From: Saccostrea cucullata
Taxonomy: Eukaryota
Length of the DNA: 64,000 nt
Direction: 5' to 3'
NCBI RefSeq assembly: GCF_032062105.1
Contig: NW_026936117.1
Location: 620,001-684,000 of the forward strand
The position numbers were made by a program. The number at the start of each line of letters is the position of its first letter. Within the stretch, counting starts at the first letter, position 1. Below, piece after piece: positions 33,001 through 61,100 of the stretch.

Positions 33001-36000
33001 ATTCTTTTTATTGAATGTTTTTCCATGTGGAGACTAGGTCGTCCTCTAGTTCCCCTAGATTCTGCTGCTGGAAAAGCTGTCTCAAACTCCGGTTTATCTT
33101 CTTCCATACATGTAAGTTTGGGTTGAGATTAGGATGACAAGGGGGCTTACCGAAAGTGCCTGTGCCTTGCTAACAAAAGTTAAATAATGTCTTATTACAT
33201 GTGTACCCCATTCCTCTTGTTTGACATTGAGGGGAGGGCACTTCCGGTTCCGGTTCCATTGATTTTTCCGGATAAATTCTAGGATGATTTTGTTGTGTTT
33301 GTTGAAAATCTAGCGATTTCTAATGATTAAAAGGAATTCAGGTATGCTTTGTAGGTTTTTCGGGCGATAATTATAAAGGTTTTAAGTAAAATAAAGTCAT
33401 ACAGTGAAAGGAAACTGAACTCTCGTCAACTACGACCAGCTTGGGCCATTTCAACTTCACTTTCACATTGTTGTGTGGACATACACCACACTTTAATCAA
33501 ACTTTTTTCTGTTTTTCTTTACCAATTAAAGATGGAGAACAAATGGAAGTAAAAAATATGAAGAATACACCCGAAAAACATATGGAACTCGAACTTCATG
33601 CTTTTTAACAAAAACGGTCACGGTCGAGTAATTAAACATTCAATTACAATTTTTTTTGGGCCTTAACAGGTAAGTATTGCAAATTAAAGGCAAAATTGTA
33701 AGCAACTAGTACATTGATGTTAAGGTTTTGGACTTTTTGAAAAAATAAAAGTGGGGACTTAGAAATTTTGACAAGTATAGTTTTATATCATGTAAATCAA
33801 GCTTTTCATTGAATGATTGGTAACATGGCATTTTACAGATATCGAACGATAATTAGTTTTAAATTTAATTAAATATTGCAGACCGTGAACACCACCAGAC
33901 TTTCTATTTGTTCCATAAAGAAATTTACTGAAACATTCGATGTCAAGCTTACATGGACATGTATCTTTATTTATTTTACTCCTTTACTCTTTAAAAACAT
34001 GGTGATTGGGTGTCTCACACGTCCCTTATTTAAAAGTCCGTAACACTTCGGATACCATGTTTTTACTCAACTTTTTAGCAATACTCCTGCATCACTGATT
34101 AAAATTAAGTTAGATTTGTGCAACTGTATACTCTTATCAGACAGATAATATGGTTCTAAATTAAAAGCCAAGACTTGGACTGTCATTTCAGTTTCCTATT
34201 TGGCGCAATGGTAGAGCGTTTGCTCTAGAGTCGCAGATCTTATGTATGGACTTGAAATTTCGTCGCAGGTTTTCGTCGCAGGTTTTCAATCCCACTGGAA
34301 TTCGAGGGTGAGACAGTAAAACCCTATGTCATGTGTCTCATGAGGTGCTGGCACAAAAGGATCTTCACTGATCAAAGACTGCAATTGCAGAATACAGGTC
34401 AAAATTTCCAACCATCACCGGCAAGTGGTGGCATCTCAGTATGAGAGAAATTTTCTCAAAGAGACGTTAAACAAACATACAGACAAAATATGCGTGAACG
34501 ACCAAGCAAAGAAACTTTAGTCCTAAAAAAGTCAAGAGGTCAGAAATTTGATCTAGATCTGACAAAGGCACTCATACCTTATCTTGCCCACCACGTGAAT
34601 CAACAATACAATCTTATAAGTATAGATAGATTCAAAATAAGTTTGGGTTTCTAGTTTATGCAAGCATACACATAGCATGTCAAAATTTTCCTTATTATAC
34701 GGACTTCTATTGTTTATATTTCACTCTAATGCGGAGACCGAATTACTTAAAAATGGAGACTTCGAGAGCACGTCTTTTAGTGGAAATTGGCAGGCTGCAG
34801 ACTGCAGGGTGACGTCATATACAGCTGATAAATATCAGGGAAGCAGATGTATAAAAATATCGAACAGGTTAGACAAAACTGTTTCTGTGGTTAAAGCGTT
34901 TACTATCGAGTGGTGGAGTAAGGAGTTGATCCTTACGTCGTGGGTCCAATCCCACTGTGGGACGTGGAGACCGGTCCTTCGTTTACCAGCTCCCGTGTTG
35001 CAGTATACGCTGCCGCGAAAAAGATCCTTCTCTGCTCAACGGCCGTATATGCATGTCTAAATTTGCAACCCTCAACCGGCAAGTGTTGGGGTCTCAATCG
35101 GGGTGATAGTTCTGTATCAAACACGAAAGATGAAAGATCATAGGTTGGGTTATTGAATTTATCAACATGAGTAATGATTTAGACTCAAAACATCAAATAA
35201 AAATGGTTCTAAAAAATTAAGAGGAAGTGAAAATCGACGGTAGGGTATTCAGCATTCTATGTTGATGAGCTGTCGTTCTTCATCATAAGGCACCATGACT
35301 GGTCAGCGGTCCGTCAGGATGTCAGTCTTACTGGAGGACACTGGTACGCGGCCAAAGCATACATCAAGTTACTCAACATGCCAGCAGGTGCCCACTACGT
35401 GTACATGGAAATGATGGCAGCAGTCCATGTAAACGGTTTGTATCTTCTTATAAATTCTGCCGTGTTCAGTATTGAATATGCAGTAAAACGTAAGTTAAAT
35501 GTAAAGCTAGGTGTTTTTTCATGTGATGTTTGTCTTAGAGGAATCTCTTTGTAGGACATACAAAATACAGAACTGTTGGTCAAATTCACATGCAGCAAGA
35601 GAAGTATGGATGGACAGAAGTCGGAGGGGACTTCTTTGCAGAGCAGGGTGAGTTTTGTATGCACAACTACCTTTGTAAATAAATAATTATGTATATGAAG
35701 CTATGCTTTTCAAATATATATAAATGAAGACGTTTTATATATAAACTGTCTGTAAACAGGTGCGACAGGAGCTACCTTGTATGTCCAGGTCCACAACTCC
35801 ACTGTGAATTATCTACAAGACTTCTCCAGCCTTCAGAGGATTCCTACAAACCCCAACTGGAAATCGGAGGCTAATGCTAGGATCAACAATATCAGGAAAG
35901 CCCCCATAACAGCCAGGTCAGTTCTGTAATCTTTTGTATATTTTGTTTGAAAAACGAATAATTCCATCAGAAAATAAACGTCACATGATGTTTCTTTGAA

Positions 36001-58100: not shown

Positions 58101-61100
58101 GAGGAGAACTAATTAGGAATCACTGACGAAAACACTTCATTCAAGACTAGATAACCTTGACCTTTGAAATATAACCTTTCTTATAATAAAAAATAGTAGC
58201 AGTATTCACTTTTGTATGAAACATGTCTTAAAGTGGGAAAAAATAATACATGAACAAATGGACCCTAAGGTCGATAGGAAATGCTTACTCCTCCATAGCA
58301 CCTGATCCATCCCCTGATGTGTTTAAAGGTGTTTTTGCTCTGGTCCCGATTTACATTGTTTTAAAGGACTTTTGAACTTTAAAACTTTTCTCTCCGTATT
58401 TCATTTCAGTGTATTACCAATGATCACGCGAGAATTGTCATGTCTGGTAGAAAGGACATTTGGTAAAATTAAGTTTTATTTTACCTTGGTTTAGCATATA
58501 CATGTAAAGCCTTGGGCTAGGTTTATTTTACCTTATTTTAACATATAAAGGGTAGGCTGTTAATTTAGAAAAATAAATCTCATTGGAAGGAGGTTCAATA
58601 GGAAAATAATTCAGTTTGCCAGCAGCCACCCGTATTCAAAAAATATATATGCACCATTTAGAAGGTCCCATCGAATTATAACCCTCTCGTTGAAAAGTGT
58701 TGCGAATTCATTGGTGAATACAATGACATCTGTATTGTTTCAATGGCTTTTTGAGCTTGATCAGTGTTTGTTTTTTTTTTTTTAGAGATTTGTCTCCCAG
58801 ATAATTTGATGTCCAAGAGCACCTACGATCAATATTAAAAATTAACATGTTATTGACAAATTAATGAGGATAAAATATCAAACATTTGTTTAGAGATCCG
58901 GGGTCTGCTCCGAATTTATATTATTTCAGTGGTATTCTGAGCTTGTTCACTGTTCATTAATTTCATATAATATTATACGAAGTTAAAGACGAAGAAAGCT
59001 TACTTGATTTATATATTCCTTCATAGAAACATATCCATTGATACTGCCAGATCAGTTAAACCTTCCATTTAACTCACCTGTTTGTAACTTTGATTGATTT
59101 ACTCCCATGGTAAACGTCTGCTGAGTATGACGTCATGATACAATCCTCACAAACCCAACTCCCATTAAAACTTGTATTCTCAAAGTCCGCATTGTGAAGA
59201 TATTCAGTTGCAGCCTCAACGAGAGAGGCGACAAAAGAAAGACCTAACCACAGAGGAAGTGAGTGCATTTTCTGATAATCTAAGAATGACTAGTGTACTA
59301 TATTTTTACTTCAACCTTTTATCAGATAAAGAAAGGTTCAGTTAGTTTCGTTTGCCTTTTCTGGGCATGGCTTAATATCCAATTTTGAACTTCAATAAAA
59401 GCCAACAGAATACAAATATATATAATTAAATAGACCATGCTGCCAACTACATGTTGTTTAATAACCCAATGCTGATTTAAACAAAAATAAAGAACATTAT
59501 TAAAATTTTCCTTTGATCGTTCTTTAGCCGAATGCAATCTGTGTCACGTGATGGTCGTCTGAAAGGAAATCAAAGATAATTTTCTATGGAGCGTCTCATT
59601 CAGGAACGATGTAAATGCTATATTTTATCTTTATCTAATCAAACATACCCGTTACATGGACTGTAATATCCTTCCCTGCAGAATCAATCACCAGGTTTTC
59701 TTGATGAATTGTATTTCCATTATGCTTAACTAGCAGTTGGTAGTCTCCTTTAAACACACTGGTATGTAATACTTGACCGGAAGTCATTGTATGGGTGTAA
59801 TCTGTCCACCATGCTTTCTTCACTAAATCTAAATATTTTTGTCCAGCAGCATTTGCCTGTAAAACAATTTGTTTTTCCTTGCAAAAAATATGTCATTATT
59901 TAAGAAATAAGGTATCATTTTTTGAGTTTTATTGAGATGTAAAACGGGTTGGTCACGTGATCAAATCCCATAAAGCCCGAAGGGCTTTATGGAAGATTTG
60001 ATCATGTGCCAACCCGTTTTACATCTCAACAAAACTCAAAAAATGATACCTTATTACTTATATTTACATTTGTGATTTATTCATACTTTATATTTGCCTG
60101 ATTGTTACTTTTAACGCGTGAAATGCGTTAATTTTTCAAACCCAACGGCATGTATGTAATCCACTAAACACGCGTCGACCCTTTATGACGTCACAGAGAA
60201 ATTACGTCGAACGTTTATCCAAACGCACATCTATGACCTCTTGACCCCATACCTGTATTTACACAGTTATAAAAACGCTTGCTTTCAGTAGTGTTATATA
60301 AAGGAAAACACTTGCAAATGTAAATATATGTATTCATTCCCGAAAAAGGTAAGTACAGATTAATGGTCGATCAAACGCTCTAAAGAACTTATGTGAATAT
60401 AGTTTTCTGATTCTGATGGTGAAATACTGGAAAGATTAGATGGTTCGTTGGATTGGCCATTATCAGAACAATACACATGTACGTAGGCAAACATTGTAGC
60501 ACTATAAGTACAGACTTTTGAAATCGAATAATCGTGACAAACTGGCACAACACAATTATACTTTACAAAGGATCATTCTCTATAAGGCCGTTTTGCGGCC
60601 TACAATGACTTCAAATTTTCAGATTGCATTTTTTCCTTAAACTTTGCACGAATCACTAGGCTTATGTTCCAATTCAATGATAAATATTGGTTGGTTAATG
60701 ATACAATAGTATTTTTAATGATATAGGGTCCCAAAGTAAGACACTATCGGTCCGAATTAGCATTAGAGTAATGGAAAAACTCAAGAGGGTGGCTGTGTTA
60801 GATAACACCCACACATGACATAACCACCTTTAACCAACACCAAAATTTGCATGTAAACTTCTTATAGACATAAAAAGTGACTACCAAATTATGAATTTGG
60901 TTAAAGGTGGTTATGACATCTAAATAAAAACTTTTCACTTCATTTTTATGATATTTGCAGAAAAAGCTAAGTACTCACAAGGAATGATATCAGCCTATGT
61001 AGATTATTTCTTTATATGAACTTTTGGTTAGAGTACAATTTTCTATTGATTTACTAAGATTAATATCAGTCATGCATATTTACTTTAAAAAATGTTAACT

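What the first reader, a model, noticed from the sequence alone, without database searches (positions are those of the whole stretch)
34677..59268. Mirror-image GH10 / prostanoid receptor cassette from an old inverted duplication
Seen: GH10-D(+), GPCR1(-), GPCR2(+), GH10-E(-), GH10-F(-). E and F share diagnostic features with D rather than A-C: WGFWDGAI, a W.TD(F/Y)TH.(I/M) segment, and a tail one residue shorter ending IAFG. The two GPCRs are clear paralogs with the same intron position, but I see no alignable non-coding sequence. Inference: a two-gene unit was duplicated head-to-head long ago and both members of both copies were retained. That could be passive linkage or shared regulation of eicosanoid signalling and digestive enzyme genes.
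Basis: partly seen in the sequence, partly recalled or inferred. Interest (0 to 1): 0.7.

Follow-up and report, generated by a model that had tools for sequence, protein, structure and literature searches.

The report
Oyster xylanase cluster around two receptors
An oyster genome segment carries six xylanase-like digestive enzyme genes arranged as a mirror image around two prostaglandin-receptor-like genes; the layout is real and old, but whether it arose by copying a two-gene unit cannot be decided from the sequence.

Summary
The window matches Saccostrea cucullata: database models P0011 and P0052 equal GH10-E and GPCR1 at 99.7-100%. The gene order is confirmed: GH10-A, B, C, D (+), GPCR1 (-), GPCR2 (+), GH10-E, F (-). 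The finding's ends are the ATGs of D (34677) and E (59268). F is cut by the window end; only exons 11-13 are present.

They are ancestral states, not shared derived ones.

GH10 falls into four old oyster types (AB, C, D, EF), each 100/100, whose branching order is unresolved. D+EF is not rejected (p-AU 0.42), and neither is AB+C+D (p 0.51). D is closer to A than to E in 11 of 13 exons.

GPCR1 and GPCR2 belong to two old subfamilies, and each has closer paralogs on another contig. An exclusive GPCR1+GPCR2 pair is rejected (p 1.8e-5). dS is saturated, and the arms share no non-coding sequence.

An ancient inverted duplication of a GH10-receptor unit remains the most economical origin, but it is unproven. 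Functional coupling is untested. Modest interest.

The parts
10947..17578 (+). GH10-A: CBM_4_9 + GH10 xylanase-like gene, 13 exons, type AB
   Evidence: Exon table; ATG and stop; 74% identity to C. virginica P0025, summed exon by exon.
19278..26148 (+). GH10-B: young tandem copy of A, 13 exons, type AB
   Evidence: 99.7% identity to the partial S. cucullata model P0006. A/B dS 0.35 and aa identity 81%. Non-coding sequence still aligns with A.
28065..32146 (+). GH10-C: 13 exons, type C (mini-exon 5 at about 29183-29221)
   Evidence: 91.8% identity to the N-terminal half of the fused S. echinata model P0001.
34677..40019 (+). GH10-D: 13 exons, type D, left partner of the mirror
   Evidence: 93.4% identity to the C-terminal half of P0001 and 80.8% to O. 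edulis P0005.
40289..41389 (-). GPCR1: prostanoid-receptor-like class A GPCR, type 1. Exon 1 41389-40592, 87-nt intron, exon 2 40504-40289 including the stop.
   Evidence: 100% identity to S. cucullata P0052; 7tm_1 at 85.9 bits; EP4 is the best PDB hit, E 5.7e-29; the TM7 Arg aligns with the Arg of FP (printed), EP4 also listed.
41390..47116 (.). 5.7-kb spacer between the two divergently transcribed GPCRs (the mirror axis)
   Evidence: No Pfam family for its 3 ORFs of 90 aa or more. Holds a C92 run, a 56-bp repeat and a 130-bp palindrome at 42134-42263. No inverted similarity between its halves.
47117..50000 (+). GPCR2: prostanoid-receptor-like class A GPCR, type 2. Exon 1 47117-47875, exon 2 49797-50000 including the stop.
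   Evidence: 7tm_1 at 79 bits; EP4 is the best PDB hit, E 7.8e-24; the TM7 Arg aligns with the Arg of EP4. About 49% (exon 1) and 53% (exon 2) aa identity to GPCR1. No identical database model was found.
51697..59268 (-). GH10-E: 13 exons, type EF, right partner of the mirror. Intron 4 donor is AT, not GT.
   Evidence: 99.7% identity to S. cucullata P0011, which starts at the Met of exon 5; exon table; donor; ATG.
59524..64000 (-). GH10-F: 3' part only (exon 11 63786-63574, exon 12 59856-59650, exon 13 59556-59527 plus stop), type EF, tandem copy of E
   Evidence: E/F aa identity 89% and dS 0.43 over exons 11-13. 98.0% identity (150 aa) to S. cucullata P0012.

Best explanation
This is an old gene cluster of the oyster lineage. 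It holds an array of secreted CBM4_9-GH10 (endo-beta-1,4-xylanase-like) genes with a divergently transcribed pair of prostanoid-receptor-like GPCR genes embedded in it.

The most economical history has four steps, all inferred:
1. In the oyster stem lineage, one GH10 gene and one receptor gene lay tail to tail and were copied once as an inverted segment. This gave GH10(+) GPCR(-) | GPCR(+) GH10(-).
2. The left GH10 then multiplied in tandem into the AB, C and D types.
3. Much later, A/B and E/F arose as young tandem copies.
4. Extra receptor copies moved to another locus.

On this reading the mirror axis is the root of the oyster GH10 tree: A-D on one side, E/F on the other.

The linkage since then is passive. 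Nothing suggests that the enzymes and the receptors work together.

Shown: the gene content, order, orientation, old age and family assignments. Inferred: the unit duplication itself.
For: - The mirror order and tail-to-tail orientation of both GH10/GPCR pairs hold.
- All four oyster GH10 types group together to the exclusion of Pinctada and Mytilus (98/99). Each type is 100/100, and types C, D and EF each hold an O. edulis member (type AB was sampled only from C. virginica and S. cucullata). The duplications therefore fall in the oyster stem.
- The best-likelihood tree found keeps AB+C+D together with EF outside: 0.14 lnL above the free search, p-AU 0.505. This matches the two arms.
- An extra residue in the last exon is shared by AB and C only, and outgroups lack it. 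This fits ((AB,C),D) and the physical order.
- GPCR type 1 and type 2 are sisters in the best tree (78/77). Each holds S. cucullata and O. edulis members.
- The seven O. edulis relatives (3 GH10, 4 GPCR) all lie on one 112,480,954-bp record.
- The fused S. echinata model P0001 is C-type followed by D-type, so the C-to-D order is kept there.
- By my own event count, one inverted event explains both orientation switches, while independent histories need two.
Against: - No positive signal ties the two duplications together.
- The order of the four GH10 types is a polytomy with inner supports of 39/15 and 59/70. The free ML tree is (D,(EF,(AB,C))).
- D+EF (p 0.423) and D+AB (p 0.328) are equally acceptable.
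- dS is saturated for every inter-type pair (pS 0.75-0.85) and for GPCR1/GPCR2 (pS 0.86), so equal age cannot be tested.
- My rough arithmetic on the branch lengths gives duplication depth over Ostrea-Saccostrea depth of about 3 for GH10 and about 2 for the GPCRs. These are not equal, but rates differ between families.
- The arms share no non-coding sequence.
- A third GPCR clade (P0060-62) sits close to types 1 and 2.
- Only Pinctada proteins that the word-based searches happened to return were available as outgroups.
- Synteny in other bivalves could not be examined.
Confidence: 0.42

Rival explanations
1. Independent histories plus one inversion. A direct tandem array of four GH10 types lay beside a separately formed head-to-head receptor pair. 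A single inversion spanning the EF gene and both receptors then produced today's mirror. No two-gene unit was ever copied.
For: - Inverting the block G1(-) G2(+) EF(-) gives EF(+) G2(-) G1(+), that is, a plain direct GH10 array followed by a divergent receptor pair (my reasoning on the order).
- The free ML tree nests EF inside the other types, as expected for a simple tandem array.
- D is closer to A than to E in 11 of 13 exons.
- The receptor family duplicates and moves on its own. Four further S. cucullata paralogs (P0053, P0056, P0065, P0070) lie on a 171,202-bp contig for which none of the GH10 proteins returned by my searches is listed.
Against: - It needs two inverted events where the unit duplication needs one.
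- The nesting of EF has support of only 39/15, and the alternative with EF outside has a slightly higher likelihood.
- The lower D-E identity can be explained by the long EF stem: 0.45 against 0.21-0.41.
Confidence: 0.38
2. The A-C and D types already existed, and D together with its receptor was then copied in inverted orientation. D and E/F would therefore be sister genes, of the same age as GPCR1/GPCR2.
For: - D+EF as one clade costs only 0.62 lnL (p-AU 0.423).
- D-E and D-F have the highest inter-type identity in exon 11: 75-76% aa and 79-81% nt in the blastn match, against 70-74% for other types.
- The 10-residue IAFG tail is shared.
Against: - The shared motifs are also present in Pinctada or Mytilus, so they are ancestral.
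- D+EF is not recovered by the quick tree or the careful tree.
- D is closer to A in 11 of 13 exons. D-E overall is 52.2% aa against 60.9% for D-A and 54.2% for D-C.
- The exon 11 excess is not significant at synonymous sites: pS 0.62 against 0.67-0.83 on about 50 synonymous sites (the error estimate is mine).
Confidence: 0.12
3. Functional coupling. The GH10 and receptor genes are kept together because they share regulation, for example prostaglandin control of digestive-gland enzyme output, or interplay between the convergent 3' ends.
For: - Linkage of both families on one O. edulis chromosome record.
- The stop codons of D and GPCR1 are only 269 nt apart and convergent.
- Passages of PMC7560691 report molluscan GH10 genes as expressed mainly in the hepatopancreas.
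Against:
- The arms share no conserved non-coding element.
- The other arm has a 1.7-kb gap between the stops.
- Four receptor paralogs lie on a different contig.
- In Pinctada imbricata the nearest receptor found (P0069) and the GH10 genes (P0010, P0029) sit on records of different length, so on different records.
Confidence: 0.08

Closest known systems
Molluscan GH10 endo-beta-1,4-xylanase expansion (Wang et al. 2020, PMC7560691; abstract and passages seen)
   Same: The same domain make-up, CBM plus GH10. Relatives P0003, P0005, P0013 and P0030 carry PF02018 + PF00331. The family is expanded in bivalves, with 2-13 copies reported.
   Different: That paper says the expanded GH10 genes are "mostly dispersed in the genome". 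Here six copies lie within 54 kb.
Vertebrate prostanoid receptors (EP4, EP3, TP, FP; PDB 8gcm, 5yhl, 8iuk and others)
   Same: They give the best sequence matches for both exons of both GPCRs. The TM7 Arg in ..R....N..(I/L)DPW.Y.. aligns in all printed alignments. That this Arg binds the ligand carboxylate is recalled knowledge. An intron at the end of TM6 is recalled as typical of vertebrate prostanoid receptor genes; my search for this in print found nothing.
   Different: Matches in the E range 1e-24 to 1e-29 only. No one-to-one orthology to any vertebrate subtype was tested. The NCBI names "EP4-like", "EP3-like" and "thromboxane A2 receptor-like" are spread over one oyster clade. The ligand is unknown.
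Inverted (palindromic) segmental duplications of neighbouring genes
   Same: Mirror order and orientation of two unrelated gene families about one axis.
   Different: No arm-to-arm nucleotide similarity remains outside exons. Reciprocal closest-paralog relations are not shown. Synonymous sites are saturated.

Membership tests
Glycoside hydrolase family 10 (Pfam PF00331) with N-terminal CBM_4_9 (PF02018) | Profile match to the GH10 catalytic domain and to the CBM | tested here: met
   Searched exon by exon. GH10 scored 29.3 (E exon 9), 24.0 (F exon 11) and 32.5 bits (C exon 11) against a cut-off of 22.1. D exon 9 scored 20.3, below the cut-off. CBM_4_9 scored 23.8 bits for D exon 1, below the cut-off of 25.9. 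3 of the 8 GH10 pieces gave no family. Full-length relatives at 75-100% identity carry both domains.
Glycoside hydrolase family 10 (Pfam PF00331) with N-terminal CBM_4_9 (PF02018) | Two catalytic glutamates: acid/base in ..WDV.NE.. and nucleophile in ..ITE.. | tested here: met
   HWDVNNEN in A-D and HWDVYNEA in E (exon 9). WITELT in A-D and F, WITEMT in E (exon 11). That these Glu residues are the catalytic pair is recalled, not computed.
Glycoside hydrolase family 10 (Pfam PF00331) with N-terminal CBM_4_9 (PF02018) | Xylanase activity | not testable with these tools
   Needs enzyme assays.
Prostanoid receptors (class A GPCR) | Seven-transmembrane rhodopsin-family profile | tested here: met
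   7tm_1 at 85.9 bits (GPCR1 exon 1) and 79 bits (GPCR2 exon 1), cut-off 30.5.
Prostanoid receptors (class A GPCR) | Closest solved relatives are prostanoid receptors | tested here: met
   The best 22 of the 60 rows shown are prostanoid receptors in both searches, followed by endothelin or histamine receptors. All 18 and all 17 hits of the two exon-2 searches are prostanoid receptors.
Prostanoid receptors (class A GPCR) | Conserved TM7 arginine | tested here: met
   fvRLTFLNAIIDPW and llRLTVLNAIIDPW align with aiRIASVNPILDPW (EP4) and alRMATWNQILDPW (FP). The role of the residue is recalled.
Prostanoid receptors (class A GPCR) | Orthology to a named vertebrate subtype, and prostaglandin binding | not tested
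   No tree with vertebrate subtypes was built; only one bird TP served as outgroup. Ligand binding needs an assay.
Inverted segmental duplication of a two-gene unit | Mirror order and orientation of both gene pairs | tested here: met
   D(+) GPCR1(-) | GPCR2(+) E(-) F(-).
Inverted segmental duplication of a two-gene unit | Genes on the two arms are sister lineages in both families | tested here: inconclusive
   GH10: polytomy. D+EF p 0.423; AB+C+D against EF p 0.505. GPCR: types 1 and 2 are sisters at 78/77, but GPCR1+GPCR2 as an exclusive pair is rejected, p 1.8e-5.
Inverted segmental duplication of a two-gene unit | Equal age of the two paralog pairs | tested here: inconclusive
   pS is 0.81 (D/E) and 0.86 (GPCR1/GPCR2), both saturated. 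Both splits predate the Ostrea-Saccostrea split.
Inverted segmental duplication of a two-gene unit | Alignable inverted arms | tested here: not met
   Only 5 exon-to-exon matches and no non-coding match. This is expected if the event is very old, so it does not exclude one.

The most novel reading that the evidence does not exclude
A GH10-xylanase/prostanoid-receptor gene pair was copied as one inverted unit at the base of the true oysters. It has stayed linked, tail to tail, in both copies ever since because the convergent genes share regulation. That would link eicosanoid signalling to the output of digestive enzymes in a filter feeder.
Probability: 0.06. Interest if true: 0.6.

Novelty: new member of a known kind. 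Interest (0 to 1): 0.25.

Why it matters
If the unit duplication were shown, the locus would be a dated example of an inverted two-gene duplication kept since before the living oyster genera diverged. It would also give a natural starting point for asking whether prostaglandin signalling touches digestion in bivalves.

As it stands, the useful results are descriptive:
- Oyster GH10 genes form a tight six-gene cluster of four ancient types plus two young tandem copies. An earlier survey described GH10 as mostly dispersed (passages of PMC7560691).
- Oysters carry at least two old subfamilies of prostanoid-like receptors with lineage-specific copies.

Tried and rejected
Computed exon by exon with summed Nei-Gojobori counts. 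All inter-type values are saturated, so it is not informative.
- **Indels as rare markers among the four GH10 types.** Only the one-residue difference in the last exon is informative.
- **Gene conversion between D and E/F in exon 11.** The identity excess is small and not significant at synonymous sites.
- **Identity table.** It used matches that ran across introns, so I dropped it in favour of the exon-by-exon table.
- **B exon 1.** The core was over-extended upstream of the true ATG, with an in-frame stop before the Met. The B exon-1 values there (8% identity) are artefacts and were ignored. The "all exons" B rows include this flaw.
- **C exon 5.** First mis-assigned and left out. The true mini-exon was found later.
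- **AU test of D+C.** It did not finish in the time allowed and was not repeated.
- **Literature.** A search for an intron at the sixth transmembrane helix of prostanoid receptor genes found 0 papers. A search on mollusc prostanoid receptor phylogeny gave nothing relevant among the 12 papers listed. A search for the S. cucullata genome assembly listed 8 papers, none on this locus.
- **RNA genes.** No Rfam family and no tRNA in the window.
- **Joined models.** Spliced models were never joined. No fold, complex or full-length search was made with a window gene.

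
Full report
**Source and method**

The 64-kb window has no N and 29-40% G+C. It matches the hooded oyster Saccostrea cucullata.
- Database model P0011 equals GH10-E at 99.7% over 371 residues.
- P0006 equals GH10-B at 99.7% over 290 residues.
- P0052 equals GPCR1 at 100%.
- All three are listed on a 696,443-bp contig.

Where a whole-gene figure is given, it is a sum of per-exon counts. For whole-protein trees I used database proteins as stand-ins for the window's genes, after assigning each window gene to its type exon by exon.

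**What is there**

tblastn with the C. gigas GH10 protein P0003 finds six GH10 loci and nothing else. The refined exon table, splice flanks and starts and stops give the following.

| Gene | Strand | Coordinates | Notes |
|---|---|---|---|
| GH10-A | + | 10947-17578 | 13 exons |
| GH10-B | + | 19278-26148 | 13 exons |
| GH10-C | + | 28065-32146 | 13 exons |
| GH10-D | + | 34677-40019 | 13 exons |
| GH10-E | - | 59268-51697 | 13 exons |
| GH10-F | - | beyond 64000 to 59524 | only exons 11-13 in the window |

- Exon boundaries fall at the same protein positions in all copies.
- Each gene starts with a signal-peptide-like stretch and a CBM_4_9 region, followed by the GH10 domain.
- The motifs holding the two catalytic glutamates are kept in every copy. 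E has WITEMT where the others have WITELT. The role of these residues is recalled.

Between D and E lie two class A GPCR genes.
- GPCR1 is on the - strand, 41389-40289, with an 87-nt intron.
- GPCR2 is on the + strand, 47117-50000, with a 1.9-kb intron.
- They are transcribed away from each other across a 5.7-kb spacer.
- Both match prostanoid receptors best. The first 22 of the 60 rows shown in each PDB search are prostanoid receptors, EP4 first.
- Both keep the TM7 arginine.

The finding's coordinates are the ATGs of D and E. The order D(+), GPCR1(-), GPCR2(+), E(-), F(-) is confirmed.

All three features are present in D, E and F. Polarity against outgroups changes their meaning.
- WGFWDGAI is also found in Pinctada P0010 (both halves) and P0014, and in Mytilus P0018.
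- The 10-residue tail ..VSHIAFG is also found in Pinctada fucata P0014, and Mytilus ends in VAFG.
- TDF.H is also found in Pinctada P0029.
- These are therefore retained ancestral states.
- The derived state is the extra residue in the last exon of types AB and C. That argues for AB+C and says nothing about D+EF.
- Exon by exon, D is more similar to A than to E in 11 of 13 exons. The two exceptions are exons 11 and 13, which hold WGFWDGAI and the IAFG tail; the third motif lies in exon 12.
- Over all exon cores, D-E is 52.2% identical in protein, D-A 60.9% and D-C 54.2%.

**GH10 tree**

The quick tree had 39 rows and the careful tree 23 rows (LG+C20+F+G4).
- The oyster proteins form four groups, each 100/100:
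  - AB: P0006, P0025
  - C: P0001 N-half, P0030, P0026
  - D: P0001 C-half, P0005, P0003, P0004
  - EF: P0011, P0012, P0013
- The four groups are together at 98/99, to the exclusion of Pinctada, Mytilus and scallops.
- Types C, D and EF each contain an O. edulis protein, so those types predate the Ostrea-Saccostrea split. Type AB was sampled only from C. virginica and S. cucullata.
- Their order is unresolved. The free ML tree is (D,(EF,(AB,C))) with supports of 39/15 and 59/70.

| Grouping tested (AU) | lnL against free tree | p-AU |
|---|---|---|
| D+EF | 0.62 lower | 0.423 |
| AB+C+D | 0.14 higher | 0.505 |
| D+AB | 1.87 lower | 0.328 |
| D+C | did not finish | - |

**GPCR tree**

The tree had 21 rows; GPCR2 was entered as exon 1 only.
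- GPCR1 (P0052) sits in a type-1 clade (97/98). That clade holds three further S. cucullata proteins on a 171,202-bp contig (P0053 at 77% identity, P0056, P0070) and three O. edulis proteins.
- GPCR2 sits in a type-2 clade (100/100) with P0065 (same 171-kb contig, 64% identity), O. edulis P0064 and P0063.
- GPCR1 and GPCR2 are about 49% (exon 1) and 53% (exon 2) identical.
- Forcing them to be an exclusive pair costs 81.6 lnL (p-AU 1.8e-5). The two types are sisters at 78/77.
- The shared intron position is a family trait. Three unspliced database models from type 1 and from a third clade end 1-5 residues after the same ..TPL.V motif, among the 11 of 19 proteins where my pattern found that motif.

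**Ages and arms**

- Synonymous differences are saturated for all inter-type GH10 pairs (pS 0.75-0.85) and for GPCR1/GPCR2 (pS 0.86).
- Only A/B (dS 0.35) and E/F (dS 0.43 over exons 11-13) are young tandem copies. A and B still align in introns and flanks.
- Between the two arms, blastn finds 7 matches. Five are inverted exon-to-exon matches and two are low-complexity. No non-coding sequence matches.
- Both duplications can only be bracketed. They fall before the Ostrea-Saccostrea split and, as far as the retrieved Pinctada proteins show, after the split from pearl oysters.

**Explanation**

One inverted duplication of a tail-to-tail GH10-receptor pair accounts for both orientation switches with a single event.
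- The version that fits best puts this event first. The left arm (A-D) and the right arm (E, F) are then the two sides of the oyster GH10 root, which is the tree with the highest likelihood found.
- The AB+C indel fits the physical order.
- I give this 0.42.
- A direct GH10 array beside a separately formed receptor pair, later rearranged by one inversion, is almost as good (0.38).
- Functional coupling has no support beyond linkage. All seven O. edulis relatives lie on one 112-Mb record. The stops of D and GPCR1 are 269 nt apart.

**Known context**

- Expansion of CBM-bearing GH10 genes in bivalves, and their hepatopancreas expression, are in print (PMC7560691: abstract and passages). That paper calls GH10 mostly dispersed, which this cluster contradicts for an oyster.
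- An EP4-like oyster transcript has been used as an immune marker (PMC5772385: passages).
- My searches listed no paper on a GH10-receptor cluster. This covers only the held library.

**What stayed unchecked**

- Synteny in other bivalves, because no eukaryotic genome collection was available.
- Expression.
- Enzyme and ligand activity.

Noticed in passing
window 55700-55710 (- strand), intron 4 of GH10-E: The donor reads AG|ATATCA where A-D have GT. The database model P0011 starts at the Met of exon 5 and so lacks the signal peptide and CBM. E may be 5'-truncated, or it may use a cryptic in-frame GT 9 nt upstream. The terminal branch of E is also about four times longer than that of the F-like P0012 (0.19 against 0.047).
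   Followed up: partly
window 63177-63605: A 43-bp unit repeated 10 times (94% matches) overlaps the 3' end of F exon 11 and its GT donor. Intron 11 therefore carries about ten copies of the splice donor, out of frame with each other.
   Followed up: no
window 4497-7571 (+) and 18450-19022: A TRIM-like gene (B-box, coiled coil, SPRY) lies upstream of GH10-A. A piece of its last exon and flank is repeated at 81% identity just upstream of GH10-B, so it was carried along by the A-to-B tandem duplication.
   Followed up: partly
window 11139-11146 and 19470-19477: Intron 1 of GH10-A and of GH10-B has a GC donor (AG|GCGAGT) instead of GT.
   Followed up: no
window 40017-40291: The stop codons of GH10-D and GPCR1 are 269 nt apart and convergent. 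AATAAA lies near 40052 on the + strand, and its complement near 40195 would serve the - strand. The two 3' ends would then sit about 100 nt apart.
   Followed up: no
window 37603-37665, 43074-43165, 36105-36347, 42134-42263: (GA)31 follows directly after the donor of D exon 8. A run of 92 C lies between the two GPCRs. A 64-bp unit repeated 3.8 times lies in D intron 4. A 130-bp perfect-ish palindrome lies in the GPCR spacer.
   Followed up: no
window 13768-14852, 22054-22341, 27206-27411, 31568-31722, 44269-44505, 58281-58408, 232-356: A dispersed repeat family (69-83% identity, both orientations) sits in GH10 introns and intergenic DNA. It is probably a transposable element.
   Followed up: no
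proteins P0053, P0056, P0065, P0070 (S. cucullata, 171,202-bp contig) and P0012 (65,579-bp contig): A second cluster of four prostanoid-like receptors, three of type 1 and one of type 2, lies on another contig. P0012 is 98.0% identical to F over the 150 residues visible here but is listed on a 65.6-kb contig. It may be an allelic contig or a very young third EF copy.
   Followed up: partly
names of P0005, P0008, P0013, P0025 and others: NCBI names many bivalve GH10 proteins "anti-sigma-I factor RsgI6-like". This comes from the GH10 domain of a bacterial protein and does not indicate an anti-sigma function.
   Followed up: no
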